From the NCBI RefSeq assembly GCF_001186125.1, contig NW_014040466.1, positions 1-37,141 of the forward strand: a DNA stretch of 37,141 bases, given 5' to 3'. How positions within the stretch are numbered: position 1 is the stretch's first letter; every line of letters begins with the position of its first letter. Below, one piece after another: positions 263-37,141 of this stretch. The stretch is from Sphaeroforma arctica JP610 (taxonomy: Eukaryota). The notes under the pieces were generated by a model. The model had not been told where the DNA came from and searched no databases. It saw only the letters and a program-made list of their open reading frames with translations. The translations under genes and the position numbers were made by a program.

Positions 263-670
263 AGGACCAATACGACGAACGATGTTGTGTTTCCAAGGTG
301 TCTTCTTAATAGAATAGGATCATTGATACAAGAACGTATCGATTACACGGTCGACATATATAGGCTCGTCTTGTATCATATTAATTAAATCACGTACCCA
401 TGGGTCGAAGCTGCGTAAGGGACAACAGAGCGTAAAGGTAGATTTAGTAACATTAATATAATTTAACAATTGTGCGATAAGTTGCCATGGTGGGTTAGCC
501 CACGCATTATGCTTTGATAAGTCAAGTTGAAGGGCATCACCTTTAGGATGAGTCAACGACCTATAATCAGAAACCTGTTTGTTATGTTCTGCGGCGAACA
601 TATCAATAGTAAATTGACCCCATCTTGATTGAGCGATGTTAAACCGTTTCTTATTAAGCATCCAATCGGT
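263..670 (-). pseudogene. Dam-like DNA N6-adenine methyltransferase domain of the Gypsy pol
   Basis: ORF 320..661 has the SAM-binding-like motif WGQFTIDMFAAEHN and catalytic NPPW (485-496). The frame continues past a TGA at 320-322 as SYSIKKTPWKHNIVRRIGP. Confidence 0.8.
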
Positions 671-699
671 TGCTAATAACTCTTTAACTGTTTTCTGGC

Positions 700-1081
700 A
701 GGGACAAGTCGACAGAGCATGTCAGGAAGATGATTATGTATTCTTGATATGTGTGTACTGTTAAAAGCGAACTTAGCAATAATGTCATGCCAGCGGCTCA
801 CCAACTGTGAATCAGGGTTCATGTCTTTTAAATATTGTTAAAGACTTTTGATCACAGGCGACAGTGAAGTAACTTACATAAAGGCAGTCTTTAAACTGTC
901 TTAGCGCAGTAACAACAGCAAAGAGCTCTTGTTTAACGGTAGGGTAATTCCGTTGACTCTTATTAAAACTCTTGCTAAATAATTGTATGTAGCGTGGTTT
1001 ACCATTTATCGTTTGGTATAACACTCCACCTACCGCTCGATCTGAAGCGTCGGTTGCTACTTGGAATGGGACGCCATCCAC
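700..1081 (-). pseudogene. Ty3/Gypsy-type RNase H
   Basis: FQVATDASDRAVGGVLYQ...QELFAVV...VACDQKSL. The C-terminal part LVSRWHDIIAKF...NHLPDMLCR is read at ~700-810. Confidence 0.9.
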
Positions 1082-1087
1082 AGGGTA

Positions 1088-1306
1088 TTACATGATGGGT
1101 GCGTCCATTACTTCACTTTTGACTAGCTTAAATGCATCATCACATTCTTTAGTCCAGAGCTTTCCCAAAGGTCCTTTGTGTAGCCATAGGTGACTGAAAG
1201 GCTTTAAGTAATGAGAAAGATGAGATACCGAATCCGAGAAGAAGTTAACAAACCCACACACAAAGTTCACATCTCTTCCAGTAATCGGTGTTGATGAATC
1301 CAACAT
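1088..1306 (-). pseudogene. RT thumb/connection region of the Gypsy pol
   Basis: DVNFVCGFVNFF...LKPF...WTKECDDAFKLVKSEVMDAPIM is a typical Ty3 RT-RNase H linker. Confidence 0.85.
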
Positions 1307-1309
1307 AAA

Positions 1310-2490
1310 TTATTTCTTGCCAGGATTAATTTCTACCCCTGCTGCAGATACCTTGTAACCAAGTAAGTGTATAGTATCTTTAGCATAAGAACACTTGTCC
1401 TCGTTAATCTTAAGTTTGGCATGGTTTAGTCGCTTTAAGACTTCCTTAACGAGTTTAGCATGTTCATGTGCTGTCTTTGTAAAGATAACTATATCATCTA
1501 AATATACTGATAAGTTATCCGAGAGGTCCGCAAATAGTTCCATCATAACTTGTTGGAAGAAAGAAGGTAACATGGGTAAGCTTTCAGGTGCACCTTTAAA
1601 CTGGTACTTTTTACCTTGCCAAGTAAAGGAAAAGTATTTCCTATGCGGCTCATACATTTGTAATTGATGGAATGCAGCTTTTAAGTCTACCTTGGAAAAG
1701 ATAGTCGCACCTTCCATTTTGCGTAGTATCTCGCTTATCTTTGATGAGGGAAAACTATGTTGCGGAATTAGTTTGTTGATTGGCGACAGGTCCAGTACTA
1801 CTCTTGTTTTACTAAATGTTTCATCATATTTATATTGATCGACCGCTAAGAGAGTTAAGTTAACTGGGGTTGCATCATAATTGATTTCAATTAGACCCTG
1901 TTTTATCCAATCTTCAATTTGGGTTTTGACAACGTCTTTGTGTCTCCAACTCACGTAGTTATGTGAAGGACACTTTAACTTAGAGAAGTCGACGTTTGTT
2001 AAGTCAAGCTTACCGTACCCGTTAGAGAACTTAAACATACACCAGTCGGTTATTGCAATCTTTCTGTTTTGTATAATTAAGTCCATAACTATATCGGTAA
2101 AGTGCGGAATCATATCCTTTGCTTCACTTTCCGAAGGTTTAGGTATCTCTAACATGTTATCATCTGACTGATATTTATTTGGGTCTAGCCCATTAGGCAG
2201 ACCAGTGAGAGTTATACTTAAACTGAGAAGATCAGTCATACCTATAATTAAAACGTATTTCTGAGACATGTCAGTAACGATTAGGTGATTATTTACTTCT
2301 CTTCTATCTGACAACGTTATATGTGCATAGTCAATGGCTTCTTCGCAAGTGGTAACTTTGCCATTTCCCAAGATTAAATCAGTTGTTTCGTTATGGACAG
2401 CCATATCTGTAGCGTAGGCTACACGGCGTGAGATAGCAGAGACCCTGGATAAAAAATGCTATAACTTTTTCTCCATTTATATAAACGGGT
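1310..2490 (-). pseudogene. Aspartic protease remnant plus reverse transcriptase
   Basis: Protease-like VYINGEKVIAF-(Y)PGS (catalytic D lost at a frameshift, ~2440-2490) and YVLIIGMTDL. RT motifs RVVLDL, FSKVDLKAAFHQ, YQF..AP, YLDDIVIF and HLLGY. Confidence 0.9.
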
Positions 2491-2569
2491 TGAAGTATAC
2501 GTTCATCTCCTTTGGTATAGATTATATTGAACTTTTTCTCATAATCTTGCTCTAGTGCACACATATGGA

Positions 2570-4567
2570 ACTGTCAGTGCTTAACCCGGACGTCCGGTAT
2601 GTCCTTGCAATCATCTTTGTGCCAACCGTTAGTACCCTTGCAAGTAGTACACTCTTACATATAGTGTCCAAAGTTTGGCTTGCCTGGTGCACACTTAACA
2701 GAGTCGTATTTACCATTCCACTTGCCATCACATTTATTGAGGTTGTAACCACACTTCTTGCAAGGTGCTCTCTCCTTCCTTTCACCCTTTGGTTTAGTAG
2801 AAGTAGAGCCTTTACCACCACCAGCAGTAGTGCGAGGTTTTAGTATTACGCGCAGTGTTATTCTCTAACGCGGAACGCTTAGCGGGCTGGGTAAAGCTTG
2901 CGGTACTAAGTACTCTAGTAGATGGGTTGGTATGCATTCGAACTATGTTCTCAGAGACAGACCAAGGCATAGATCTCAAATCACCATAGGCGATGATATC
3001 ATCATTGATCTCCTTAAACAGGTTAGCCCCCAGAGTCTCCTTCATCTGGCAAATAAATAGATATTCGCCAGTATAGGTACGACCTCCCACCCGAGTGTAC
3101 ATATGTGTCATATGAGCTAGAGCACCTCGAATAGTAGTATCGTTCGCAAAGGAGTTGCGAGACTCTAGAAGTTCACGGTCTCGTGCATCTTCAAAGAAGG
3201 CGATAAGTATATTCTCACGCAACTGGCGCCAGGGTAGGGCTTTCCAGTTGAGCTCATGGGCCTTAAAGATAGTTTTCCATTCCTCTGACTCACAGAAATG
3301 AATAAAGGCAATCATCATCTGCTTATCTTTAAGGCTGGCAGACTCCTTAAGTTGGTCAAAGGCCTTCAGTGTCTCCACTGTACTCCCATTAGAGAAATTG
3401 ACCTCAGCCTTCGCGTTACCTAGCTGCTTTATAAAGCTTGGTTCGAAGCGTTCACGAGGCTCACGCTCAGTGCTACGGGCTGCTAGTGCCAAGATGGAGT
3501 CTATCTCCTTTCTCTTGTTATCGATTAGATAGCGAATGCTATCCGCTTTCTTATCGTCAAGGTCAGAGTCATTCAATAGACGGTCCTCAAGGACTTGCAT
3601 ACCAGAACGTAATAGCCTGAGACGATGTTGTCTGGTTCTCACTTCCTCGTCTTCAGAGCTAGAGTGGGTACTCTCTAGTGAGGTACTGGTATAACGATTA
3701 CCAAAGTCGTTATTACCAGGGCTAGATTGTAAATGAGGATCGACGTTATGAGGGTGGTAAGCCTCATCGATTTCCATACAATCATAGCCTCTGACAGGGT
3801 TAGGTTTGTCGAGAGGATGGTCGATTGTAGCTTCCGAGCTATAGAGATTAAATCTTGAGGTTTTACCCACTTCACCAGCGTTAACTGGCACAGTGGTAAC
3901 CCTGCTGGCTGGTAAACCCGTGGATCCCAGGTTTGAAATAGAAAGAATATCGGCTACGTGGGATATGATCGAAGGGTCAGAAGCTTCGGCAGCGGCTAGC
4001 TCCTTTATAAGCTTATATTTGCGGTTCAAATGGCGTCGAGATTGAGAAGATCCAACCACTTGTTGTCGAGTTATGGCGTCCCCAACATTTGCATCTTCCG
4101 CCCCAACATTCAGTGGCGAGGCATTCAGTGGGGAGGCATTCAATGAAATTTCACGAAATGGAACGCCACCATCTTTGTTTAATAGGTGGATTGGGCTGAC
4201 TTTTAGTAGTAATAAACCGTCGATCTCGAGATGATTCTTCCACTTGTTCAGGAGATATAGCCTTTCCAATATCTGACTTTTCGTGGTCAGCTGGCGAGCT
4301 GAGGCCCTGAGCTGCACTACTAGGAGACACACGGACGCTGGCGAGCCTTTCCGCGGCAGTTGAGACCTCCACTTCCAAGGCTTTAGGGTCCGACGAGTCA
4401 TCCTCAGAGTTTTCTTCAGAACCAAGCTCAGAAACGGCTTCCTCTACAGCTTCAACGGCAGGCTCTAAACCAGACGGACCAGCGTCCCCAGTAATCTCAG
4501 GAACCTCAACAGGCTTAGCAGGCATAGAGCTGGCAGCTCCCTTGCCTTTATAATTACCTTTAACCAT
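2570..4567 (-). pseudogene. gag-like ORF (frameshifted)
   Basis: ORF 4151..4567 is the probable N-terminus, shifting into ORF 2812..4425 and then into a frame reading CKKCGYNLNKC...CTTCKGTNGWHKDDC (~2600-2765) just upstream of the protease. Confidence 0.65.
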
Positions 4568-5681
4568 ATTAATAGCTCAAGAATAGGAAAATTAATAAAG
4601 CCTAGGTATAGTAACTAGCGTGTAGCTAACTGTAGGGTAGTATATATTACTTACAGTCCTGTCGCTGGATAGTAGGCAATTGTTAGACAGTCTAGAAGCA
4701 GTACACTACGGTAACTACTAAATAACTGAAAAATATGTAAACTTCGATGGATATTTCTATGTTTTAAACTGTTATATAAACTTATGTCAGTTAGGATTTA
4801 GCAGTGGTAGCTTGTGTATGAATGATCCGGACTGCCTCTTGGTAAGAGCCTTAATATCCTCGATCACACAGGACATACCTCTAGCTGTCCTTTCTTGAAT
4901 AATTTTCACTAGAAGTACTAAGTGTTCATGACCACATGGCTAATTTGTAGATAGACATAAAAACGTAAGTCAAGTTAATACATTAGCTAATATAAATAAA
5001 GTTCCACCTGAAGAAAAGTTAAAAAAAGAAAAAGACTTATTGGATTTTGGAGATTGGCGGGAAGACCAAAACCTGTAAGTAGTAGTTCAGATATTATAAA
5101 ATTTAGTTTATAATATCCTACATCTACTATCGTCTCAAATAGGTACAAGTAAATGAGTCATACCAAATACTCAGGCTATTGGAGCCATCAAACATCAAAG
5201 TGAATTTAGAACACTTTGGAAATATTGGAAAAAGAATTTGTATTAAATTATTTTAAATACAAATAAAAACCAATGTGTTATCAAATTTGATCTTAATATA
5301 TTAGACTAACCGGAGGCCGTATTTCTACAGAGATATACAACGTTCACAAGATATTGACAGAACATACAGATCCCAGAGCAATCGACACCAAGCTCATGAA
5401 GGTAGACAGGGCAAAGCTATGTCAGCACAAGTATCTGATGACCAGTTACCTGCAAACAGACAGATTGCATTCTCCACAATTAACCCTACAATCGACAACA
5501 AGGAGGTGATTGGTCAGTCAGATAGAGATTCTAGAGGTGTATACTGACTAGCTTGCGATAGTTGCGCCACCATACACGTACTTCCCTATAAGTACCACAA
5601 ACATCATCTCGTCAGCAACATGCGCATCAATGACCGGTATGCGCTCGAAGTAGCTGATGGTCAATCATTTATCCGAAGTAT

Positions 5682-6671
5682 GTGGCTCAGCTAGGAGTCT
5701 TGGGGGACATACTCATTGATACGACATGTAAAACTGCACTACTACGTATCAGCCCACTCTCAGCGCGACACTACTCATTTGAATTCACCAACAACAGGAT
5801 GTACATATTACTACCAAGCTTCGGAACCATAACAGTACATGAAAAGCACAGAATATACTGTGTGCACATCGACGACATAGCTATGACTACAGTGGAACCA
5901 TCGCTGGAGAAAGCCAATCAGATTTCATGGCACAACAGGCTCGCGCACCCCAGCTACCTCTCAAAAAAATTACCCTACATAAGGCAACCAGAGGAACGAT
6001 GTAGAGCATGCACTATTGCTAAGAATAAGAACAAGAATACAAACAAGGAACGACAGCACGAACCTGCTATAGTGCCTCTCGAGTTAGTCTTCGTGGACAT
6101 AATAGGACCGTTCGTAACGTCAATAGGATCCAACACCCACTCTGTATCAATCATAGACGATTTTTCTGGCATTGCCAAAGAGTATCCGATCCGCGATCTG
6201 AAAGCGACAACAAATCTGGATGCTATGTTACACACCTTCGATGAATGGTACATCTTAAGTCATCGCCGAGTTCAGTCCATACAAATGGATCGAGGCTCAC
6301 AGTTTGCAGCAAACGTAACGAGGCGCATGCTTGCATATTTGGGATACTGCTCGAGGTACACACCTACGGCCACGCCACAATACCATGGCAAGGTAGAGAG
6401 ACTCCATGGTGCACTGGTTTCTAGAGTGCTTGCACAACTGAAATATGCACGTCTACCGACTACTATGTGGGCTGAATCACTGATTCAAACTACCAACATA
6501 TACAATGCTATATCCACCAACGAGAAGAGCTCATCCCCATACGAGAAGTTTACAGGATACGCATTTTCGATAGATATGTTCAAGAACTGTGATCCAGACG
6601 GCAAACTCGACGACAAAGCACTGGATGGCATTTTTCTTGCGCAACCCTTGGACACAACACCGGACTCGTAA
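5682..6671 (+). pseudogene. Copia GAG-pre-integrase zinc-binding domain and integrase core
   Basis: Uninterrupted WHNRLAHPSY...RCRACTIAK, followed by DDE motifs. Confidence 0.9.
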
Positions 6672-6732
6672 CGTATATACTCACCTCTGACCAAGCGTAT
6701 AATACAAAGCCGAGACGTCTATATATTCGAAG

Positions 6733-8816
6733 ATGAATTATTTGTCTGGGAAGACAACAAAATGGACAACCGCTATCGTACGACCTGACACTACGAACAG
6801 TAGTACATTCCTCCAAATCGAGAATGGCGACTTCCAAACGGACGCAAGGACAACATCGACAACGAAAGATATGCTTAGCCAACATGCCCAGCCAACTGTG
6901 ACGCACAAGTCGAGCAACTCAGAACAAGTACAAATAACTTCATCTTCAACACGACAACCTGCTGAGTGCGAAGTACATACCATCAAGTCGGAGGCTGCTG
7001 CAGCGACTACCAAAGCTCAACATGATCTCGAAGCAACCATAGCTAGAAGAACGGCAGAAGGTCGCCAAGTCTCTCGAAAACTGCGGGACTTTGCGATATA
7101 TGATAATAATGTCGACTGGTATCACGATATCCGCCGTAAGAGACGAACTCCTAGCACTACGCACACTGTCAATTCAGCAACTGCAGCAACGGAACCGAAA
7201 ACATACAAAGGTATATATGAGATGCCAAACACAGCCGATTGGGAGGAATCAGCACGTTCGGAGATGGAGAGCTTGGTGATACAGCGCAAGGCATTCACTC
7301 TAGTTGACAACAAACCGCGAGAGAAATCATTATTCCCCCCTCGATGGGTCTTCAAGGCAAAAACGGATGAATTAGGACAAGTCACACGACTCAAATCACA
7401 TCTGAAAGTAGCAGCATTCAACGCAAAATAGGGAGTCAATTACGATGAAAGCTGTGCCCCAGTAGTAGCCAAGGAAACACTCAGGATCTGTCTAGCTCTA
7501 ATGGCACACTATGACATGGACATTCGACAATACGATACACCCTCGGCATACCTCACTCAAGAACTGGATACCCCTAGCTACATGCGAGTGCCGCAAGGAT
7601 ACGATCTCATCGAACATCTATTGGTCCCGTCTCAGAGAAACCTATACGAAAGGCACAAGCAAGGAGACACAAAGGTAGTATGTCGAGCTGACCGTCGTGT
7701 ATACGGTCTACCACCTAGCGGACACTACTGGTTTAAAGCTATCCATCGGTTTGCTATACAACACATTTATAACCAAGTACAATCGGATGGAGCACTGTTC
7801 ATCAAACAAACACACAGTGGACCTTGTCTCATTATTATACACGTAGATGACAAAATTGCAGCATGCCAGTGTATGACCGACGGACAGAATGACGCAATGA
7901 AAGGCAAATGGAACACTGTTGATATGGGCCTACCGTTGTGGTTTCTCAAGTGCCAAGTGGAAATACTTTTTGGAAGAGTACGTCTCCATCAACGACAATA
8001 CTTAAGAGAAATATTGTAGGAATGGGGGTTGATAGATTGTAAACCAGCGTGGGTGCCAATTTTAGAATCGGACTATGAAGTAGCAGACAAACATGCATAT
8101 CTCCAGAAAAGGGCGGCAAGCTCAGACGTCCCAACAATCACACACTATAACAAGCTAGTGGGTCAGCTACGATACCTTGTAGTCAAACACGAGTGAATAT
8201 ATGCTTTGCAGTTTCGATCCTAAGTCGCTATCTGATAGCACCTCAGTACCACCACTTCAGAGGTGCCAAGCGCTGTTTGAAGTATCTCGCTGGTACTCAG
8301 GACTTCGGACTTGAATACACGAACAAAGAACCATGTATTTCCTATCTGAGTGCAGACAATAGCTTTGCTAGCGATGACACAAATAGACGATCCACCACCG
8401 GGCGAGTGGGCATTATAGCAGGTGCGCCATTCATATGGGGAACAAACTTGCAACGATTAGTAACAACGTCTACAGCAGAGGCAGCATACGTAGCACAATC
8501 TGATACAGCCAAAGACGCAGTATGGGCTAGGGATCTCTTCACAGAATTCGGCATTCCGCTCGTAGAACCCACCACCATAGAACAGGACACCAAGTCAGCA
8601 ATACTGATGGGAAATGGTATCACGAAATCCCGCCGTACAAAACATGTCGATCTACGATACCATCACATCAGGGAACTCACATCGAACAACACCATCAAGT
8701 TAAAATACATCCCATCAGAACAGCTACTCAGTGATTTCTTCACGAAGCCACTCAGCCGAGAGAAGTTTACCGACATACGCGACAGACTAATGACTCGGAT
8801 GCCAGTATCAACATAG
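6733..8816 (+). pseudogene. Copia reverse transcriptase and RNase H (broken by stops and frameshifts)
   Basis: ORFs 6733..7431, 7501..8019 and 8193..8816 carry Copia RT and Ty1-type RNase H motifs. Confidence 0.9.
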
Positions 8817-9816: not shown

Positions 9817-10319
9817 TGAGAGACTACAGGTCTCAGGCCATATTTTACAGCAAGAAATCATCTTTGATTTATGGAAGTCATCATAGTTAGCTCACTCCCG
9901 AGAGCTAATCAGGTTGCTCAAATTACTCTCAAGAGTTGAGTTATTATTTAACCGACTTCCGAGAGCAGATTAAGTTTCTGAACCGATTCCCGAGAGTGGA
10001 TTAAGCCTGTCAACCGCAACATATTAATAATAGCTGTGGTTATATGTGAGTCACAACCTATGCGGAAAGGCATCATGTGATCAGCGTAAGATTTGGTTGC
10101 AGAGAAGTAGAAATAGAAAAGCATCGAAGTGTTAAAGTGTTCCGCATAAGGTTTCTCATAATGGCCATATGAGTTTTTACTCTGGCCAGCCCAAGAGGCT
10201 GAACACTAGCACAAACACCTTAGATATAAAACCAAAGGTGAGTTCAGAAATAAATACATAAATTTGCACTTTATTTAAAGTCTACTGCATTGCACTCTAA
10301 CAGAATACACTGTGTCTCA
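9817..10319 (+). repeat. LTR, probably the 3' LTR of the upstream Copia
   Basis: Polypurine tract GAAGGGGAG (9808-9816) directly precedes TGAGAGAC, and the segment ends ...GTGTCTCA. TATAAAA at ~10225 and AATAAA at ~10248. Homology to the inverted copy at 19017-19446 starts exactly at this TG. Confidence 0.75.
9894..10015 (+). repeat. 30-31 bp tandem repeat (4 copies) inside the LTR
   Basis: ACTCCCGAGAG-like core at 9894, 9925, 9955 and 9986. Confidence 0.8.
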
Positions 10320-10329
10320 CCACTCTTCG

Positions 10330-11400
10330 ACAGATGCTCCGCTGATCAACCGATGTCAAACCGCGAAGTACACCTTGGTACCTCCGTCCTCCTTCACGGA
10401 CCTCCCGATGGTGTATGCGGCGTTGGAACAACTCCAACTCCAGTCGATCCACGGTCAGGTGTCAGTTCCGACGGCGCTATAAGTCAACTGGGTCCTCCAT
10501 GACCGGTACAGTCATCTCTTGCCCGATAGGCTCCGTCGACTCCTCCAGGTTAAGTGTTCCTGGAACGTTCCTGTCGCACTGCTCCGACCAGTTCTGGCCA
10601 CTTGTGATGACTGTATATGTACTATGGGCGGAAACAGGGACTGCTCCAGCAATCTGCCAGGAAATCAATCTGGATTATACACATGTCGATCAATGAAGAT
10701 GGAGAGGGATTTAATCAGGTACTTGCTGCACAGGATAGGTTCTCCCTCCGAGCATTCGGTACATGTGGCCGATTTGATGAGCACACCGCCTCGCAGTTGA
10801 TCCGGTTTTGCGTTGAGTACTTACGACCCAGGGGCCATGTCCAACGTTATGTCTTGGATAAGGACAGTTCCATGCGCAGTGATGCGTTTACGGCATACGC
10901 AGCAGCAAATACTGCTGTGGTACATTACGTTTCCACGGGCAAACATGCCGGCAACGACCGCATAGAGGTCTCCTTACGTATCCTCAAGACATGGTTTAAG
11001 CGGTCCCTTTCAGTAGGCCTGCACCACACATGGCGCTCCCAAGTTCCGATTTTCTTCGCGAATTACAACGCGACATGGTCAAGCGTTATTGACACGGCCC
11101 CGTACACTTTGGTTACGGGCCGCATCTACCCTCGTCCATCAGACCCGGTAATAACGGCCCTACTTGATGCGGATGCGACCGCCTCGAGTTTCGAAGCTAA
11201 GGTGGAGGAACCGCCTCTAGATCGGGGCCTCCTTGCACTCCGCGCAAAAGGTCACGGCGGGCCGCCAGATCTTATATTGGCCCATGGCGGACCCACCGCA
11301 CAAATTGGCGAAGGACTGGCTGGGCCCGGTGATTGTAACGACCCATGTCCCTCCGGTGATGCACTATATCAAGGACACGACCCTCAATAAAGAGTAGCGT
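10330..11400 (+). pseudogene. Ty3/Gypsy integrase fragment (HHCC, DDE core, GPY/F motif)
   Basis: LHDRYSH...W...ATCDDC; QEINLDYTHV; VLAAQDRFS; LDKDSSM; GNDRIEV; then HKLAKDWLGPVIV in another frame at ~11290-11340. Confidence 0.85.
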
Positions 11401-13975: not shown

Positions 13976-14239
13976 TGTAGTAAATTAGGTGAATAACTGA
14001 ATCAAACAACCTAGTACTAGGTAGATTGGTTCAGCCATTCACCTAATTTACTATAAAACTGGAAAGCGTCGCGAGTACTTCGATCTCAGTCCGCACGATG
14101 CGCTCCTGGGTGGATTCCTTTGAACCTTTCACGCTGTGATCACCACTCCTAAGCGAATTTCTCTGAACCTTCCACGCTGGGCAATAGTGCTAGTCTAATA
14201 CTAGGTTGGGTAGTTCAGTCATTTACCTAATTTACTACA
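13976..14239. mobile_element. 264-bp TG...CA element with ~45-bp terminal inverted repeats (MITE or solo LTR)
   Basis: Begins TGTAGTAAATTAGGT and ends ACCTAATTTACTACA. Internal 80-bp palindrome at 13976-14055. Flanks are CTGA / CTGG. Confidence 0.7.
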
Positions 14240-15322: not shown

Positions 15323-15342
15323 NNNNNNNNNNNNNNNNNNNN
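15323..15342. other. Assembly gap
   Basis: Run of 20 N. Confidence 1.
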
Positions 15343-19016: not shown

Positions 19017-19446
19017 TGTGAATCCTACATTTAATCCATATACCATAAGTTCCAATATTAGAGCGTAGAATAGTAAATTTATATTTAATGTAAATTTATA
19101 TATTTATTTCTGGTTTCACCATTTGTTTTATATCTACGGTGTTTGTAATAGTGTTCAGCCACTTGGATTGGCCAGGGTGGAAACGCACATAGGGAATATA
19201 AGAAACCTTCAGAACACTTTTACACTTCGATAATGTGCATGTAGATATAATAATTTACCCAAATTGAAATGAATAACATCATCCCTATTCTATTTCGACT
19301 TCTCTGTTAGTTGATATGCTCGTGTTGTTGGTCGAGAGTGAGTTAAGAAACTTATTCGACTCTTGGGAGTGAGTCAATTCAAATGATTTCAATGGATCAG
19401 AGTGTTAACTTGTTGTGAAAGCTGGTCTGACACCTGTAGACTCTCA
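19017..19446 (-). repeat. Solo LTR related to 9817-10319
   Basis: The reverse complement aligns by eye with 9817-9930 and ~10100-10300. Termini TGAGAGTCTACA...TGTAGGATTCACA. No clean TSD (TAAGT / AAAAT). Confidence 0.75.
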
Positions 19447-22388: not shown

Positions 22389-23528
22389 ATGCCTACAGTA
22401 CCTAAAAACGATTCAGCAGCCGCCAAGCGAGTGGTGGGATCCACCGAGTATATACGGTGGCACCATATGGATAGCAGATATGCTTTGAATCGATTTGGAT
22501 CGCGATGGAAGGAGACCTGGAGCGAAGCATCTGTTGTGAGTGCAAAGAGCTCTGCGTCGGCAACAGGCAGGGTAAAGGTGTGGAAGATCACGTTGAGTGT
22601 TTATGGGTTCACAGATAGTGATGGATATGTATATAGTAAAGAGAAAGAACAGTCACCACAGCTCATAGCGTTGACTCCGCTTCCTGAAGTAGATGGTGAT
22701 GATGCACCTATAGGAACACCAATGCTGATTTGCGGTCCTACTCGTGCAGCTTTAGCTAGACACCAACTTTTAGTGCAAAACAATGGACCACGCACACGAT
22801 ACAGCTCAGACCAAGTACGTGTGGGTGCACCTGACTACTACAGCGATGCTGTACCACAAGCTGTTGTACAGCAATCAGATGCACACAACGAAGATGTACA
22901 CAGCAACACACACTCTCTTACACACAGTGCTCTTGCACAACCAACTATCACTCATCATACACCAATGACACACGTACACACAGAACGTTTAGAAACAACA
23001 CACGCTCACACAGCACGTGTAGACAACACCCACATGCACACAGCACGTGCAGGCGATATACAGGCGCATACATCACGTGCTGACGGCACAGACGCACACA
23101 CAGAACATGATGAGGACACAACCTCAGACACAGCACATGCTGAAGACACACCCGCACATACAACACATACCTCACAACGGTATCAACCAGCTGATCTAAG
23201 TTCTACACTTGTGCCAGGCGATGTGAGCATTGTGAACTTAGCACGAACACTGTCACACTTAACATTACATCCTCACAACATTGCACCGGATGGTATACAG
23301 CTGGCAGTGCATAATGCAGCTCCAGCCTCCGGATCATCAGCACAAACTAATCAACAAGACGACACTCAACCAGAAATTGACTTAGGATTGGACTTGGGTT
23401 TAGACAACGAGACTCCGGAACAACAACACACACACATGCACATGGAACACTTGCACGCGCACACGCCACATCTAACTCATCAACGCAACATGCCCGACAG
23501 CCACTTATCACTCCATCAAGTCTATTAA
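22389..23528 (+). CDS. N-terminal ORF of the piggyBac-like element, with His/Thr-rich 10-aa repeats; possibly the frameshifted transposase N-terminus
   Basis: 379-aa open frame inside the TIRs, ending 8 nt before the transposase-like ORF. Confidence 0.55.
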   Translation: MPTVPKNDSAAAKRVVGSTEYIRWHHMDSRYALNRFGSRWKETWSEASVVSAKSSASATGRVKVWKITLSVYGFTDSDGYVYSKEKEQSPQLIALTPLPEVDGDDAPIGTPMLICGPTRAALARHQLLVQNNGPRTRYSSDQVRVGAPDYYSDAVPQAVVQQSDAHNEDVHSNTHSLTHSALAQPTITHHTPMTHVHTERLETTHAHTARVDNTHMHTARAGDIQAHTSRADGTDAHTEHDEDTTSDTAHAEDTPAHTTHTSQRYQPADLSSTLVPGDVSIVNLARTLSHLTLHPHNIAPDGIQLAVHNAAPASGSSAQTNQQDDTQPEIDLGLDLGLDNETPEQQHTHMHMEHLHAHTPHLTHQRNMPDSHLSLHQVY

Positions 23529-23536
23529 GCGCGGTC

Positions 23537-25242
23537 ATGCCTTTTGATCTTACAGGCAGGGGACATATCATGCTAGATACGCTTCTCACACAGGCACCTA
23601 TTATCAGACCAACATCAATTGATGTCCATGGGGTGGTTTGGAAGTGGAAGTCTGTTGATGAGGATGCCCGTCCAGTCGAGAGACTGGACTGGAAGGTCAT
23701 CGCCAACAACCAGACATTCCGGCCTAGGGATGGGATAGCGCGTGATGCGCTCTCTTACTTTTACGCCATGTTTCCTCTTGGTCACTTAGAGGAAATGTGC
23801 GCATTGACAAACGCAACACTCACCACAAGCAAAGACAGGCGGTACGCACATCATTTAACACCAGGAGAGCTCCTCAAATGGTTCGGTGTGTGTGTTCAGT
23901 TCTGTTTCATCGATTTCGGCTCCCGGGCGGACTGTTGGCGGAAACAGGCATATGCACACGAGATGCATCCCCATATAATTTTGGCCGCTTTATGGAGCGT
24001 CGCCGATTCGATGCTATTTTCCAACATCTCTAATTTGCGGAGACTACGACAAACACGCTAAACCCAAACAGTCAAGACCACCGCTGGTCTCCTGTGAAAG
24101 GGTTTGTAGACGCTATCAATGATCACAATAACCGCCAGCAGCGAGATTTGCGTGGATGAAGGTATGAGCTGATGGTACGGCTTTGGAGGCCATTGGCTCA
24201 ATGGGGGCCTGCTCCATTACGTGTCTATGGATCGGAAGCCGGAGTCCGGCTGTGAGATCTGGACTGCTTGCTGCGGGAAGGGTCACTTTTTATTAAAGTT
24301 GGAGCTTGTGCAGTCGGCGGACGCCAGCGAGAGAGAACATGAAGCTGACCATCAACATGGTACAGCGACAACTCTGCGTTTGGTACAGAAGTACTTTGGC
24401 AGTGGACGTGCTATCTATGGTGATACCTGGTTTGCTAGCTATCTAAGACCGCAGCTAAGATGTTTCCCATGAAGGTTCTGGGTCGCGAAGAACTGGCTGG
24501 AGAGGGACATTGGTCCTCCATGGTGACCACAGATTCAGCTAATAACCAGTATATCGCATTGGTTTGGTCTGATAGAAATAGAAAGTATTTCATCAGCACT
24601 CAAAGTACTACTAAGCCGGGTACCACCATCTCTCGTATGAGAGTGAGAAATGACGGCAACACGATTGCAGCTAAAGAAGTGCGTTGCCAGCAGCCCCAGT
24701 TAGTAGAACAGTATTTTATATACAATGATATCGTCGATAGACATAATAGACACAGGCAGGATACGCTCAATCATGAGAAAAAGCTCGAGGTTAGAACCTG
24801 GCACAAACGCGTTGCTACCTCTTTGCTGGCTATGTGCATTGTTAATGCTTTATTGTTGTACAACGGGACTCGCACACCAACGGAGAAACAGGTTGATCAA
24901 CGAAACTACTATATGATGTTATCAAAAGAATTAATGAACAATAATTATGAGGCACGTGTTATACGTTCAGTTACAGCCGCAATTACAATCCGTCCAGAAG
25001 TAACTACTTCTGGGGTAGGCGCACATGCAACTCCCATCAAAGAAATGAAACGAGAAAGGAGAAAGAATAAGTATGGGGAGGTTGTAGAAGGTTTGCGTGC
25101 TTATCGGAAGTACTGCAAGTACAGTGGATATTTGAAGAAGAAATGCCGTACTGGGGATGAATGTAGTATGTGTGGTTTGTGTGTACACAAGGCCTGCTTC
25201 ATGGCACACCTCCGGGAATCACATCCCCACGACGAGGATTGA
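23537..25242 (+). pseudogene. piggyBac-family transposase (DDE_Tnp_1_7-like) with Cys-rich C-terminus
   Basis: YFYAMFP...TN...LTPGELLKWFG; ICVDEGMS*WYG...DRKP..GCEI; IYGDTWFAS; LVWSDRNRKYFIST; VDRHNRHRQ; C-terminal CKY...C...CSMCGLCVHKACFMAH. Several frameshifts. Confidence 0.88.
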
Positions 25243-30071: not shown

Positions 30072-30769
30072 CTCTCCTTAATTTGGAAGCGAAAGGACAG
30101 TGTATGTAAATAATTTTTATATGTGTTAGGTACCCTAGGGTAGTGATAGCAACATATAGGCTGGCTCTCCTCAAACTGGATTGAGGCTGGAATAATTGTA
30201 AAAAGAAAAAGGGGATGGGACAATGGGCTGAGGCAGAAGATGATGGGCCGGTAAAATTGGGTTGACAGCAAATTGGAGGAATATTAAAAATTTCGAGGTG
30301 GGGTCTGGGGCCGAAGGCGTTGGGGGCGAGCGTGGACTGGGAGGACGATGCAGAAAAAATGTTGAAGGGAGGAGAAGTCTCGGTGGTGGTCGACCAATCG
30401 GGTGCTGTGCACGTTGTGTGCGTATGTGTATAAGTATGTTTGTGTAGTATAGGGTAACGATGTTACAGTTAGTGGGTCTAGAGCAAGCTGGTGTCTAGAT
30501 GGATAGTAGTGCATATATATACAGCAAGGAGGCGGATGAATCAAATCAGAGGGTGGATGGCGGTGAGCATCGATCGGGTGGATCTCTCCTGAAGGCATGG
30601 ACGATGTTGTAAGTTAGGCTGCATAACAGAGATAGCAGACACGGTATAGTGTGTTGGTAATGTGTGTATGGTTGTTATCGGACGTATATGCAAATGCTGC
30701 AACAAGGGATGATTGATCAGGGTCGGGAATGTCGGTGAGTGTGTTAGATGTATGTTTTGTTTGGGTGGG

Positions 30770-32260
30770 TCGTGGAAGGTTTTTGGTCAAGGTGTCTGCG
30801 ATGTTATCGGCAGTGTCAAAATACTTGGTAGCAATGACACCTTGGTTCTGGAGGTCACGAATATGGTGAACGCAAATATCGACGTGCTTCAGCTGCTTGG
30901 GAGTGCGCGTGTTGGTAATGACATGTGCGGCGGATTGGTTATCGCAGTAGAGATCAGCGGAGGCATCGGGGGTATTGCCGAGTTCAGTTAATAAATTGCG
31001 GAGCCATTGTAGGAGTTTAGCGGCTTCACTGGCAGCAAAGTATTCGGCTTAAGCAGTGCTAGTACTGACAGTCTTTTGGCGTTTACTTTTCCAAATCACT
31101 GGTGTGCCACACACGTGAAAGACGTAGCCGATGGTGGAACGACGGGTAGTGAGGCAGCTGGCATCAGCGTAGGCGTCAGTGGAAAGGGGTTGGGGCGTTT
31201 GACTGTACGTGAGGCCAAGTGTGGAGTTGGTTCGGATAAAGTGGAGGACTCAACAAACAGTGAGCCAGTGGTCTGCGCTAGGGTTGGAAAGAAAGCGGGA
31301 GATATTGTTGACCGAAGGTAATATCGATGCGCGTTAGGATAGAGAGGTAAAGGAGGGTGCCAACGAGTTCTCGGTAGGGGCAGGCAAAGGGAGGGCCTTC
31401 ATGTTATACGAGCGGGGCAGTCTGAAGGGGGTTGTTGACAGGATGAGTTGTAGGGATGTCAAAGTGCTCGAGGGCCTCATGAATGTACGAGGTCTGGACG
31501 ATGCTGGTGGAATCAGCGTTAGTGATAATGCGATAGCCGAGGAGCCAGGTGGGTTCGCCGAGGACGGAGCAGTCGAATTACGATAGAAGCTGTGCTTTGA
31601 ATTTTTCAAACATCGGCTGGAGTGAAACCACGTATGATTAGGTCGTCGACGTAAATCATTGTATGAGGGTGTGCGGATGGTAAACATACATCGGTATGTA
31701 TGTGCCTGGTAGAATCCGAATTGAAGTAGCTTAGACTGGATAAGAGAGAACCAAAGCTTGCCGGATTGTTTGAGACCGTAAAGCGATTTCTTGAGCTCAA
31801 GGGTGGTGACCTTAGAGATGCCTATTTGGTCGGAGCCAGCGCGTGGTTCATAAAAAGAGGATGACCAAGGTCAGCGTTGAGAAATGTGGTGTTGGCGTCC
31901 ATCTGCTCTGTCTGCCAACCCTTGTTGGCAGCGAAAGCGAGAAGCGTGCGGAGGGATTCATGGGTGCAGGTGGGCGCATACGTCTCCGTGAAGTTAATAT
32001 CCTTGGTTTGCGTGAAGTCAAGGGAAACGAGGCGAGCTTTATATTTGTCAACGATTCCATTGTCTATCTTGATTTTGAAGACCCATTTGGACGTTACATT
32101 GAGGACGTCTGCAGGAAGGTCGGTCTTGTCGCGAATGACGAAAGTGCCAGTCTTGCGAAGGCTGTTCATTTTGGACTCGATGGCTGCGGGCCAGAGATCG
32201 GCTTTGGGGCTGTTGAGGGCCTGTTTGATAAAGGTAGGGGTGATCGGTTGGTTCTGGACA
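30770..32260 (-). pseudogene. Copia RT and RNase H fragments
   Basis: PTFIKQAL...SKWVFKIK...KARLV...TETYAP...QMDANTTFLNA, MIYVDDLII and KHVDICVHHIR. Confidence 0.85.
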
Positions 32261-32757
32261 GCCTCGCAGAGTGCGTGAACGTGAGAGCAAACGGCATTGT
32301 ATTTTCGTTGGTCCGAGAGTTGCTTGCGGGTAAAGTGAGGGCGGTACTTGTCAGGACCCGGGAGATCAGATATGTGTGGGGTATCGTGCGAGTCGTCGAT
32401 GAGGAGGTTGCGGAGCTCGCGGTTATGGGAACGTTTGGCAAGGTGGTGCTGTAGCTTGTCGTTGTGTGACCCCAGGATACGGGATTGGTCGTGACGAGCT
32501 GTATAGGTTTGTAGAAGTTTGGCCTGTTGCTGAGTCTGGAAATCCGCGGTGCTGGTGCGACCTTTGAGGGCACGGCGGTCAGTAGAGGATTGGGTGGTCG
32601 GGTGGGCGATAGGGTCACGGGCGGTACGAAGCAGGATCTGAAGATCTTCAGGGGGAGAGTCAGTTGCGGTGAGGGGAGACGGAAGTGGGGGGCTGGGGAG
32701 GTCACATAGGGGGGGGGTGCAGAATCGACGACGGAACACGGCGGAGAGTTCTAAGGG

Positions 32758-33582
32758 TCACAGGTCTCGGGCGGTGGCAGGAAGGTCAAGGTGGCGGGCG
32801 GGTTCACGACGGCAGGCAGGGTATCGTGATATGTGGCGACAATAGAGAGAATAGGGCTTGGACCTAGAACTGACGTTGTGACATAAGGGGAAGATGCCCT
32901 CATTGAATGGAACGTGGCGGGAAGTCACGGTGGGACCAGTGTCGACGTTGAGCATGCGATATTCGTCGGCGTGCGTAGAGAAGTGGTCATACGCGATGAG
33001 GATGCCAACTCGACATTTGGGACAGAGTCTGTCGGTGTTGCCGTGATCATAACTGAGGGTCATGCAGCCATACACGCGAAGGGCTTTGACGAAAGCAGTA
33101 ATGGGGCGACCAAAGAATGCTTCGTAAGGGCTGATGTGGGATGCATGGGATTTGGCTTCGGCCCACATGTGGGAGGGTCGGAGAGCCTGGGCGACCATGC
33201 AAAATGCAATGTTCATGTTGGTCTGGTGTCCACGTTCGACACCACCGTGTTTGACGGAGTCGCCAGTGGGGTTGTAGAGGATCTGTACATGGGCGAGGTG
33301 GATAGCGCGTTTAAATTCGGTTGCAACAAATTCACCACCACGGTCGGCGATGATGGTGCGTAGGCGATCGCGCCCCTGTGCTTCAATATAGGTGTAAAAA
33401 CGATCGAGGACAAGGTGGGCATCGCTTTTGACACGAAGGTGCTCTTGGTACTCGAGGCCTGTACGGCGTTCAAAGAAACGGATAGTGTGTGCATGGCCAC
33501 CATATCTCTGTTCAAATTTGGCTTCAAGATCGACCTGCCATTTAGCGCCAATGGCAGGGAGGGTTCGGGACTTGTCCCTAAC
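32758..33582 (-). pseudogene. Copia integrase core and SH3-like tail
   Basis: Same frame as 33583..34386 after a single TAA: KWQVDLE...IIADRGGEF...GGVERGH...MWAEA...PYEAFFG...LRVYGC. Confidence 0.88.
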
Positions 33583-33705
33583 TTAGAGTTTGTGCATTTC
33601 GCCAGTGGCACAGGATACGCAGGAGCATGCTAGGGACCCCGTGTGGAGGAGACTGATGTCGATGGTAGTTTGGAGTGCTGCAGGAATGGGTACGGCTTGA
33701 GCCGT

Positions 33706-34134
33706 AGGACCGAAGATAGCGACACCAGTGTATAGCCAGTTGGGAGTGGTGACAAAGTCTTGAGTTCCGTCGGGTTGGCGTCGGAGGAACGTATGCGGAA
33801 AGGAAGGGATAATTTCGACGTGTAACTGAAGGTGAGCCATGAGTTTGCGCCACCATGCTGCTTTACGCTTGACGGGGAAGAACCAAATCATGCGGCCTTG
33901 GTCGGTATCGCGCGGGGAATCTTTCCAGGGAGGTTTGTCATAGAGGCGCTTGGTGGGCTGGCGCCAGTGCTGTTTGTATGCGTCGTGAAGGGAAGTGGCT
34001 TTGTCTGTGTGGTCAAGGGTGCAATAGGTAGGGACCTGGTGGTTGTACTTATTAGCGAACATGTCGATGTCAACGGAGCCGAAGACCTGCGTGACGTGTT
34101 TGTCAAATAGTGTGGGGTGAAGTCGGTAGTCGTC
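33706..34134 (-). pseudogene. Dam-like N6-adenine methyltransferase domain inside the Copia pol
   Basis: DDYRLHPTLF...FGSVDIDMFANKYNHQVPTY...HDAY..HW...LYDKPPW...WWRKL...HTFL...PNW...IFGP is collinear with the 263-670 domain. The catalytic motif reads KPPW (33925-33936). Confidence 0.75.
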
Positions 34135-34765
34135 GCAGTAGGTCAGCGGCGGAGGGGTAGGGATTTTGTGGGTGTGGGCGATGGCTTTAGTCGCGCGGGT
34201 GGATTGGTGCCCAAAGCGGGGATGATGGAGGTTGAGACTGTCAGTCTGGAAGGCATTCAGGTGGTAGCGCCCGGCAGATTTGTCGATGGCTTTGACGGAG
34301 GTGCCATCGCATGTGACAAGGCATTGGGCGAGAATGCTGGGAGCGGGAGTTTTAGGAAAGAAGATACTGTAACCGTTGCGTTGCATATTGCATACGGAGA
34401 GGATAGGCTGGCTGGCGTCGGGGAGAACGCGGGCAGGGCCGAGACCGGGAATGGTGCCACGGGTAGGGGCGGTGACGAAGGATCCGCCGACGAGCTCAAT
34501 GACGAATTGACCATGTTCGACGTCGAGGAGTGTGTAAGCGGAGGTGATGATTGAAATGTCGGCATCGGAGTCGATAAGAGCAGTGGCTATGACAGATTAG
34601 TAGTTGGGTTCGGCACGGAGTATAAGGGTAGTGCACCGGTTCGATGGTGGGGCCAGCCGGGTGGGGAACTGGTTGTGGATGTGTGGCTGCGTGAGGAATC
34701 CCGTGGCTTCAGGCACGGCGGCTGGCGGTGGTAGTGTGACCAGTGGAATTGGGGTAGTTATTACA

Positions 34766-35524
34766 TTAAAGAGAATCAGGGAGAGTACATTGGGTGCCTG
34801 TAAGGGATGAGTCGCAGCAGCGGCGACAGTTGGTGGAATGCCAGTTATAGGCGCCGTGGCCAGGCTTCTGGCAGGCGAAGCAGTTGCCGGAGGGGTCTTT
34901 ACCGAGTGGGATACGGCGGGGACGTTGGGTAGGTGTAGGGGAAGGAGTGTGGTGGGAGGCACTGGCGACGCCATAGTTGCTGCTAGTGCTTAAAATGACC
35001 TTAATATTGGTGGCATAATTGCGCATTTCAGAAACGATGGCATCGAGGGTGTATGTGTGGTCAGTTGCGCCCATAACGTCCTGGGCAATGATTTCGAATC
35101 CATCAGGAAGGGATTGCAGTAGGCTGCACACGTGATAAAATTCTGGTATGTCAGCATGTGAGGTCTTTGAACTGGTCGCGAAGGAGATGGACTTTGGCGA
35201 TGCTGTCATCCAGGGAGGGCTGCTTGGGGAGGGTAACGAGTTGAACGAGGAGTTCATATATGCGGCCGATGGTGACGAAGTTGAAGTCGTTACAGAGGCG
35301 GCGATAGAACGCGAGAGGTCTTTGGTCGAGATAAGTGTCGTATTGTTCTGGGAGGCCGTTGCCGAGTAACTCAAATAAGATGGTGGTGCCAACGGTCTTC
35401 TCGCAGGAGTCAACAGCAGAGGCAGGGTGCATAGGGTGGACGATGTCATGTTTCTTAAGATTGTGTTTGAGTTGACGACGCCAGTTGGTAAAATTGTCGT
35501 CCCCAGTAAGCTTCGTAGCAGCAT
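34766..35524 (-). pseudogene. Copia gag with zinc knuckle
   Basis: CSLLQSLPDGFEII...LDAIVSEM and CFACQKPGHGAYNWHSTNC, frameshifted. Confidence 0.75.
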
Positions 35525-36708
35525 ATTTACTGGAATACTTGAAGGGTACTGGCTAGACTGTCAGGGATTTTGGGCATCTGATGGTAGTCGTGGTGGGGAG
35601 TGCCAAGGAGTGGGGAGTCCGATCAAGATCGAGGCGGGGTGAACAAGGGGATAGATGGGAAGCGTTGTTCAAGCTTGCGGATCTTGCTGCTTTGGGCTAC
35701 CTGCAGCTGTTGACTGAAACTATGGGAATCAGATGCAACAAGTTACGCCTGAAGGGTAGTGAGTTCGTCAGGGAGCTGTGTGGCGGCAGTGGCGAGGACC
35801 TCGTTTTCTGTGAGGGCGTCCTGTAAAAGTCGTGCATGTTCGTGTGGTTGTAGGGTGAGGTTGGCGCGTTATGCGTTGCGATCTGTGCGCAAGCGTTGTA
35901 TGTCAGCTTCAGCAAGGGCGTAGGGTTTACGGAGGGTGGTGCGGTAGCTTCAAGGTGAGTGTCAGGGCATGCAGTGAATTGTTCCTGAGCTTGAATGAGT
36001 TTGAATCGTGCCTCTTCACGTTCCTCAAAGTAAGTGTCGTGTTTATGGCGGATGCGGGCGAGGTCGTTTTGTAATGTGGTGTGTCCGGTGTGTGGCTGTG
36101 TAGGTATTGATGTCTTGTATGCGTGTAAGATTGCAATGAAGATAATTGACGTTAACCAGATTCAGCTGTTTGATGTACCGTGTATCCAGTGAAGCGATCA
36201 TAATCGATCCCAAAAAGGTAGAGCATCTATTAGATTGGAGAACACTCACCGCAGGCTAAGGATGTAAACAGCATGTGTGATATTGTCAACTTTCTGTTGG
36301 GTGGAGGTCCTTACTTAGTAAGTTACCTCAAACACTTTGGACACATAGATCAGCCACCAAAGGATGGGTTATCATTTATGGTGGCAAGCGACGCATCCAA
36401 AATGGCACTGGGGGATTTACTGTATCAGATGACTGACGGGAAATCGAGATATATGTAGTTCTTCAGCAGGGCCATGAACTTGTCACAAATCAACTACCAA
36501 ACAGTGCAATATAAGCTTCTATTCTATGTGAATGCACTCATTCATTCTTACACTATACATATATGATACTCATCTTAATACTATGCGATCAGAATTCATT
36601 GGAACACTTAAAAGATATAAAACTCAACTGACAGTTTGTCAGTCGGTGGCATGATACCGTCACAAATTCCCCCGTTGGCATAAAGCATATTCAGGGTATT
36701 CCCAATAG

Positions 36709-36911
36709 CTAACCGGATATAATGACACGCTTTATCCCGGATTTCAGCAGGATTATTTGTAAGCTTTTAGTTACCTATTGGGAGGGCAATCCTAGATAAC
36801 TTAAGATGACAGACTAACCGGTATGATGTCACGCTTTGTCCCGGACTTCCACAGCATTGTTTGAAAGTTTACCTATTGGAAGGCCAATCCTAGATGATTT
36901 AAGATAACAGA
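36709..36911. repeat. ~100-bp imperfect tandem duplication at the RNase H/MTase junction
   Basis: CTAACCGG...CACGCTTT.TCCCGGA...TTACCTATTGG...CAATCCTAGAT starts at 36709 and 36814. Confidence 0.85.
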
Positions 36912-37062
36912 TAATTTCTATGGACCACATGCCATAGATATGGTTGCAGCTCAACATAATGCGCAACTACCGTATTATCAAACTCTTGAACATCCCGAAG
37001 GTGATGTATTTCATTTAACTTGACCGATGAGAACGCAAGGCCAAATCCACCGATACTGTAAT
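36870..37062 (+). pseudogene. Third Dam-like methyltransferase remnant (not in the ORF track)
   Basis: TYWKANPR*FKITDNFYGPHAIDMVAAQHNAQLPYYQTLEHPEGDVFHL, then after a frameshift LTDENARPNPP (AATCCACCG at 37044-37052). Confidence 0.75.
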
Positions 37063-37141
37063 AAGCCGGGCCTCCACATTAGACTTTATGTTATAAACGT
37101 ACTCTTAAGCAGTACGTAAATCATAAACGTACTCTTAATAG

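What the first reader, a model, noticed from the sequence alone, without database searches (positions are those of the whole stretch)
33583..34590. Ty1/Copia retrotransposon with an N6-adenine DNA methyltransferase embedded at the integrase zinc-binding region
Seen: one - strand frame runs protease (ALIDSDAD), then LHHPRFGH...YCDD, then ~140 aa with DIDMFA and YDKPPW, then SLLH...CVSC, one TAA, and the integrase DDE core. The other Copia in this window (5682-6671) has an uninterrupted WHNRLAH...CRAC, which serves as an internal control. Established: Dam-like MTase domains are typical of DIRS tyrosine-recombinase retrotransposons, where they follow RNase H; they are not part of the canonical Copia pol. 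Inference: this Copia lineage captured an adenine MTase in frame, probably processed as an MTase-integrase fusion that could mark its own cDNA or insertion site with 6mA. This copy looks dead (KPPW instead of NPPW, apparent small indels after it). I cannot verify novelty without a search.
Basis: partly seen in the sequence, partly recalled or inferred. Interest (0 to 1): 0.9.

Follow-up and report, generated by a model that had tools for sequence, protein, structure and literature searches.

The report
Copia integrase with inserted Dam-like methyltransferase
A family of Copia-type jumping genes, likely from the single-celled animal relative Sphaeroforma, carries an adenine-methyltransferase-fold domain between the two halves of its integrase zinc finger; such domains were so far reported only in DIRS and Gypsy elements, the domain may let new copies mark themselves as active, and this particular copy is broken.

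Summary
Confirmed. One reading frame runs protease, HH, Dam-like domain (33700-34134), CxxC, stop, integrase core, stop, Copia-type RT (RVT_2). The gap from the second His to the first Cys is 195 aa, against 17 in the window's other Copia. The domain belongs with DIRS-type Dam domains and folds closest to PCIF1. It is not a one-off insertion: other copies join it to both neighbours, and Sphaeroforma arctica proteins show a second family, 35% identical in the integrase core, with the same order. Their Dam domains form one clade (99/97). This copy is dead. A May 2026 preprint already describes Dam-carrying LTR elements, including in S. arctica, but as Gypsy only; its main text never mentions Copia. 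Earlier scan notes likewise hold only Gypsy cases. New here: the Copia host and the site inside the zinc finger. Catalysis is unproven: NPPW was read in none of five Copia copies, and that preprint's E. coli assay was negative. Verdict: new variant of a recently known kind.

The parts
35151..35552 (-). gag, N-terminal part (decayed, frameshifted)
   Evidence: weak Pfam Retrotran_gag_4 E=0.048 and DUF4219 E=0.087
34841..34882 (-). gag zinc knuckle C-x2-C-x4-H, last Cys position reads W
   Evidence: read from the translation
34230..34596 (-). aspartic protease (DSDAD 34572-34558) and linker
   Evidence: motif (motif meaning recalled); 58% identical to P0001 over residues 1-57; no Pfam hit
34138..34229 (-). 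first half of the integrase zinc finger (H-x4-H) and linker
   Evidence: same motif in P0001 and P0004 and in the control Copia
33700..34134 (-). Dam-like N6-adenine methyltransferase-fold domain; motif I region DIDMFA 34071-34054; motif IV position reads KPPW 33936-33925; five codons shorter than other copies just after it
   Evidence: other copies from loose ends, translated by eye
33586..33699 (-). predicted helix and second half of the zinc finger (CxxC 33621-33610)
   Evidence: CxxC-xxG[KE] also follows the domain in P0058; helix predicted at low confidence
33583..33585 (-). premature TAA between zinc finger and integrase core
   Evidence: also in an identical contig of run X16 (record 15)
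32758..33582 (-). integrase catalytic core (D 33531, D 33345, E 33237) and SH3-like domain, ending in TGA
   Evidence: Pfam rve E=0.0014, SH3_retrovirus E=3.5e-8; residue places
31334..32757 (-). Copia-type reverse transcriptase, frameshifted
   Evidence: Pfam RVT_2 E=3.5e-21 and 8e-6 in two frames
30614..31200 (-). RNase H region with stops
   Evidence: translation; Ty1-type motif recalled; no Pfam hit

Best explanation
This is a dead copy of a Ty1/Copia family whose pol gene carries a DIRS-type Dam-like domain between the HH and CC halves of the integrase zinc finger, so the mature integrase would likely carry the domain onto the new cDNA and may mark it with N6-methyladenine. Shown: domain order, family-wide presence, two old subfamilies, decay of this copy. 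Inferred: a protease cut between HH and CC would split the zinc site, so the domain probably stays in integrase, is packaged in the particle and sits on the cDNA. Untested: it methylates adenine in the RNA-DNA intermediate or cDNA, and host AMT1 then keeps the mark so that new insertions lie in permissive chromatin (the model the 2026 preprint proposes for Gypsy DAM-LTRs). Architecture about 0.9; whole mechanism about 0.45.
For: Other copies link the domain to both neighbours: X15 record 10 (33989-34997, 137 differences), X16 record 16 (33485-33815, 46 differences), X20 record 22 (32713-34921 in two pieces); five differing X13 records cover 33949-33987. S. arctica P0001/P0003 share the order HH-Dam; a second family shows HH-Dam (P0004) and Dam-CxxC-integrase (P0058; P0059 without a readable CxxC). 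Between the families the Dam N-half is 56% identical (35/63) against 35% (40/114) for the integrase core and 31% for the linker, which points to selection on the domain. Five Dam rows form one clade, 99/97. Asn at motif IV is kept in 4 of 5 readings, and NLPY is the catalytic motif of DIMT1, so N-[LI]-P-[WF] need not be dead. The preprint reports 6mA in S. arctica and more methylated insertions among DAM-LTRs.
Against: Canonical NPP[WFY] was read in 0 of 5 Copia copies, though all five are probably decayed. The preprint's heterologous DAMs did not raise 6mA in E. coli. Iyer et al. call DIRS MTase copies likely inactive and derived from PCIF1. The best structural match is an RNA enzyme, PCIF1/CAPAM (Z 10.0, rmsd 3.5, 143 aligned; next 7.9). 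No copy with an open frame from protease through integrase was seen. The strongest conservation was measured only in the N-half; the C-part against P0058 is 33%. No dN/dS could be run.
Confidence: 0.45

Rival explanations
1. The insert is kept as a non-catalytic module: it binds nucleic acid or SAM, or tethers the integration complex, without methylating.
For: Motif IV departs from NPP in all 5 readings; Iyer et al. propose such a role for DIRS domains; negative E. coli assay for related DAMs.
Against: Asn and the second Pro are mostly kept; NLPY is catalytic in DIMT1; the SAM-side motif D-x-F is invariant in 5 of 5 rows; all copies read are decayed.
Confidence: 0.3
2. The domain is an RNA N6-adenine methyltransferase acting on the element's transcript or on the RNA strand inside the particle.
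For: Top fold matches are PCIF1/CAPAM, then KsgA, DIMT1 and Erm; NLPW and NIPF resemble the NLPY motif of DIMT1.
Against: A shared fold shows no substrate; M.TaqI and T4 Dam score Z 7.3, level with KsgA; a seat inside integrase favours DNA (inference); the sequence and feature neighbours are annotated as DNA methylases.
Confidence: 0.13
3. The domain is part of the family but the zinc finger no longer closes around it; it is cut out or the integrase N-terminus is rebuilt with other ligands (for example the Cys of YCDD).
For: Both flanks were predicted at low confidence (pLDDT under 50 for residues 1-24 and 213-228); family A keeps a Cys 23 residues after the second His.
Against: Both families keep HH before and CxxC-xxG[KE] after the domain; family B has His, not Cys, at that place.
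Confidence: 0.1
4. A one-off nested insertion or assembly chimera put a DIRS or Gypsy Dam fragment into one Copia copy.
For: The window is full of nested elements, with two more Dam pieces.
Against: Same junctions in several copies and in two families at 35% integrase identity; only 26% identity to the window's Gypsy Dam; identical contigs across both junctions.
Confidence: 0.02

Closest known systems
DAM-LTR retrotransposons (Fernandez-Moreno et al., bioRxiv 10.64898/2026.05.21.726589; whole main text read, figures and supplements not seen)
   Same: An integrase-type LTR retrotransposon carrying a DIRS-type Dam domain in pol; one lineage is reported in S. arctica itself, whose 6mA was mapped there.
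   Different: All lineages in the main text are Ty3/Gypsy-like and were classed by RVT_1; 'copia', 'Ty1', 'PF07727' and 'zinc' occur 0 times. Here the host is Copia (RVT_2, integrase before RT), the domain sits inside the integrase HHCC motif, and it scores 14-19 bits on Pfam Dam, likely under their E<1e-5 screen.
DIRS tyrosine-recombinase retrotransposon methyltransferase domain (Pfam PF05869-like)
   Same: Same domain family; 20 of 54 scanned hits have RT or RNase H upstream; the insert starts at the same xDW/xDY motif.
   Different: DDE integrase instead of tyrosine recombinase; domain before RT, not after RNase H; long branch and altered motif IV.
PCIF1/CAPAM cap-specific adenosine N6-methyltransferase
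   Same: Best solved fold (Foldseek E=6e-4; Z 10.0); placed in one clade with DIRS domains by Iyer et al. (passage).
   Different: 12-15% identity; a cellular RNA enzyme with WW and helical domains; no function can be carried over.
DNMT-carrying retrotransposons (de Mendoza et al. 2018, PMC5890265; passages read)
   Same: Retrotransposons that captured a DNA methyltransferase into pol.
   Different: Cytosine enzymes in LINE, DIRS and Gypsy; that paper notes that Symbiodinium Copia lack a DNMT.

Membership tests
Ty1/Copia | pol order PR-IN-RT-RH | tested here: met
Ty1/Copia | RT of the RVT_2 type | tested here: met
   E=3.5e-21, 76 bits over the 31.6 cut-off; no RVT_1 hit
Ty1/Copia | compact HHCC zinc finger before the integrase core | tested here: not met
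   all four ligands present but H-X195-C against H-X17-C in the control; this is the variant feature
Ty1/Copia | paired LTRs, primer site, polypurine tract | tested here: inconclusive
   no LTR pair found; one PPT-like 10-mer at 30174; copy is decayed
DIRS-type eukaryotic Dam domain | sequence similarity to the family | tested here: met
   the Pfam cut-off itself is not reached
DIRS-type eukaryotic Dam domain | SAM-dependent methyltransferase fold | tested here: met
   model pLDDT 76; top matches are methyltransferases
DIRS-type eukaryotic Dam domain | Asn-Pro-Pro catalytic triplet | tested here: inconclusive
   this copy KPPW; others NLPW, NQP, NIL, NIPF; two more copies align through the motif but their letters are not listed
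DIRS-type eukaryotic Dam domain | adenine methylation activity | not testable with these tools
   needs an assay
DAM-LTR (2026 preprint) | Dam domain in pol of a DDE-integrase retrotransposon | tested here: met
DAM-LTR (2026 preprint) | Ty3/Gypsy-like RT (RVT_1) and order | tested here: not met
   RVT_2 and Copia order; so not a member of the five described lineages
DAM-LTR (2026 preprint) | raised 6mA and expression of insertions | not testable with these tools
   no genome or modification data held
DIRS retrotransposon | tyrosine recombinase, RT-RH-Dam order | tested here: not met
   DDE integrase, Dam before integrase core

The most novel reading that the evidence does not exclude
The first methyltransferase-bearing Copia lineage: an active adenine methyltransferase grafted into the integrase zinc finger, so that integration and 6mA (or RNA-hybrid) marking are done by one protein. 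It would be a further independent capture, in the same genome as a Gypsy DAM-LTR, and perhaps taken from it.
Probability: 0.4. Interest if true: 0.75.

Novelty: new variant of a known kind. Interest (0 to 1): 0.55.

Why it matters
It extends Dam capture to a second LTR superfamily and adds an independent case in a host with a mapped 6mA methylome, so the 'self-marking' model can be tested with existing data: Dam-positive against Dam-less Copia in one genome. It shows that an integrase zinc finger can tolerate an insert of about 145 residues over a long time, which bears on integrase engineering. It also suggests that screens using Pfam Dam at E<1e-5 with RVT_1 miss such elements, and that the preprint's 'Dam-less LTR' control set for S. 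arctica may contain Dam-positive Copia (inference; supplements not seen).

Tried and rejected
No genome was held, so no genome-wide copy count, intact copy or dN/dS. Word-index protein searches found nothing for the domain in longer proteins or the ORF at near length; they also missed P0001, so they are insensitive; the alignment search found 3 proteins, all S. arctica. Locus scans found no relative in metagenome, viral (46) or prokaryote (85) contigs; this does not show absence elsewhere. Sequence search of solved structures gave nothing useful (PCIF1 only at E=0.46). The atlas gave no hit for residues 100-337. Co-folding the HH and CC halves with zinc gave no verdict. The longer model matched only methyltransferases, no integrase N-terminal domain. 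Donor: the free trees do not join the Copia Dam clade to the window's Gypsy Dam, but the AU test does not reject it (p=0.65, constrained tree scored higher); unresolved. No RNA holder is on record; X20 as RNA is a guess. The 44 listed single-base differences give no sign of selection (Dam 4 of 11 synonymous, p=0.31), but 39 are mostly this copy's own decay and only the tool's top rows of about 1,580 were shown. ApT observed/expected in the element is 1.02, uninformative. The profile was built from hits to this query, so its score on the query is circular and is not used as proof.

Full report
Observation. The - strand ORF 33583-34596 reads protease motif, HHPRFGH, YCDDY, DIDMFA, YDKPPW, CVSC and a TAA. 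The same frame continues into an integrase core with an SH3-like domain and, after one TGA, an RT that hits RVT_2 at E=3.5e-21. The order PR-IN-RT-RH and the RT type make it Ty1/Copia. The gap between the second His and the first Cys of the zinc finger is 195 residues; in the window's other Copia (5658-6671) it is 17. No LTR pair was found.

Identity of the insert. Pfam Dam is weak on this copy (E=0.05; 0.004 on the cut domain). An unfiltered search of 1.84 billion representatives gave 56 hits. I scanned 54, leaving out two repetitive ones: 42 carry Pfam Dam, 20 carry RT or RNase H upstream, 1 (P0004) carries rve, none RVT_2. The atlas places the domain with Dam clusters at 0.92. The model (pLDDT 76) matches methyltransferases, best PCIF1/CAPAM (E=6e-4; Z 10.0 against 7.9 for the next). 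Iyer et al. put DIRS methyltransferase domains in the PCIF1 clade (passage). The insert is thus a DIRS-type Dam-like domain.

Host. The four best hits and two further ones are Sphaeroforma arctica JP610 gene models, an ichthyosporean. None is the window's own gene (best 60%), so the host is inferred to be this species or a close relative. No genome was held.

Family trait, not accident. Laid contigs include identical pieces across both junctions (X16 records 15 and 17) and differing copies that join the domain to the protease side (X15 record 10), to the integrase side (X16 record 16) or to both (X20 record 22, two pieces). Five differing X13 records cover 33949-33987; X13 and X15 may be the source of this DNA, which does not matter for copies that differ from it. 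P0001 runs protease-HH-Dam at 56% identity. A second family is seen in P0004 (linker, HH, Dam N-half, then integrase), P0002 (whole Dam) and P0058/P0059 (Dam C-half, then integrase; CNPC-FVGK in P0058). Its integrase core is 35% identical to the window's, against 29% for the Dam-less control, while the Dam N-half is 56% identical. The five Dam rows form one clade at 99/97, split into the two families (57 rows, all picked for likeness to the query, bootstrap not fully settled). One old capture, kept under selection, is the simplest reading. These gene models are fragments, so no single record shows family B from HH to CC.

This copy is dead. It has stops at 33583 and 32758 and frameshifts in gag and RT. 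Motif IV reads KPPW, and loose ends of other copies, translated by eye, show five more codons after it, which brings the spacing to that of DIRS domains. Of 39 sites where this copy differs from X20 and from other copies, 11 are silent, against 27% expected under neutrality.

Catalytic motif. Directly read: KPPW (window), NLPW (one copy, in three runs), NQP at the end of P0001, NIL in P0004 and NIPF in P0002. NPPW was read in none of the five, whereas 37 of the 56 hits have it or a close form. Two more copies align without gaps through the motif, but the tool does not list their letters. NLPY is catalytic in DIMT1 (passages), so the variant is not proof of loss, nor of activity.

Mechanism. 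Shown: place and conservation. Inferred: lying between HH and CC, the domain stays in mature integrase and travels with the cDNA. The longer model predicts two helices before the domain and one after it, ahead of CxxC, at low confidence on the flanks; that this mirrors the three-helix integrase N-terminal domain is recalled, and the fold search did not show it. Untested: methylation. I favour marking of the replication intermediate or cDNA, later kept by host AMT1 (0.45), over a non-catalytic role (0.3), RNA methylation (0.13), a rebuilt zinc site (0.1) and accident (0.02). Against catalysis stand the negative E. coli assay and Iyer's view that DIRS copies are inactive.

Prior art. A search found bioRxiv 10.64898/2026.05.21.726589; I read its whole main text, not its figures or supplements. 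It reports five DAM-LTR lineages, one in S. arctica with 'conventional Ty3/Gypsy-like organization', raised 6mA and expression. 'Copia' and 'Ty1' do not occur; the screen used E<1e-5 and RVT_1. This window holds such a Gypsy-type Dam with intact ANPPW after RT-RNase H (278-670; Pfam E=2.6e-8), only 26% identical to the Copia domain; whether it was the donor is unresolved. Listings of searches showed no title or abstract opening on a Copia with an adenine methyltransferase; the library lacks most subscription papers. Six earlier scan notes concern Gypsy cases only; look-ups by place, sequence and further words were empty.

Verdict. Real and family-wide; a new variant (Copia host, insert within the zinc finger) of a kind described in 2026; function unproven but testable with existing data. 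Interest 0.55.

Noticed in passing
window 278-4443 (-): Decayed Gypsy-type element: RT (RVT_1 E=1.5e-27), RNase H, then a Dam domain with intact ANPPW at 278-670 (Pfam E=2.6e-8); integrase not within the window. Probably the ichthyosporean DAM-LTR lineage of the 2026 preprint (membership not tested).
   Followed up: partly
window 36877-37023 (+): Short Dam scrap beside the Copia's 5' end, overlapping a ~100-bp tandem duplication (36709-36911); groups with the Gypsy Dam (95/84).
   Followed up: partly
window 5658-8816 (+): Second Copia without Dam (compact H-X17-C; rve, RVT_2), 29% identical in the integrase core; used as control.
   Followed up: yes
window 23381-25242 (+): Two DDE_Tnp_1_7 transposase pieces with a Cys-rich tail, piggyBac-like (label recalled).
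   Followed up: no
window 10611-11390 (+): Integrase-looking ORF without a Pfam hit; nearby 9817-10279 has inverted copies at 19078-19446.
   Followed up: no
window 13976-14239: Near-perfect palindrome with partial repeats, like a small foldback element.
   Followed up: no
window 37057-37141: Extremely deep repeat with many different loose ends in laid runs: a very high-copy element end.
   Followed up: no
proteins P0042, P0047, P0012, P0025, P0011: Unnamed metagenome proteins with the Dam domain after an SH3_Tf2-1 domain, after a chromodomain, after an endonuclease domain, or ahead of a protease-like region: further placements; the endonuclease-Dam one may merit a look.
   Followed up: no
window 15323-15342: Run of 20 N (assembly gap), far from the finding.
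   Followed up: no
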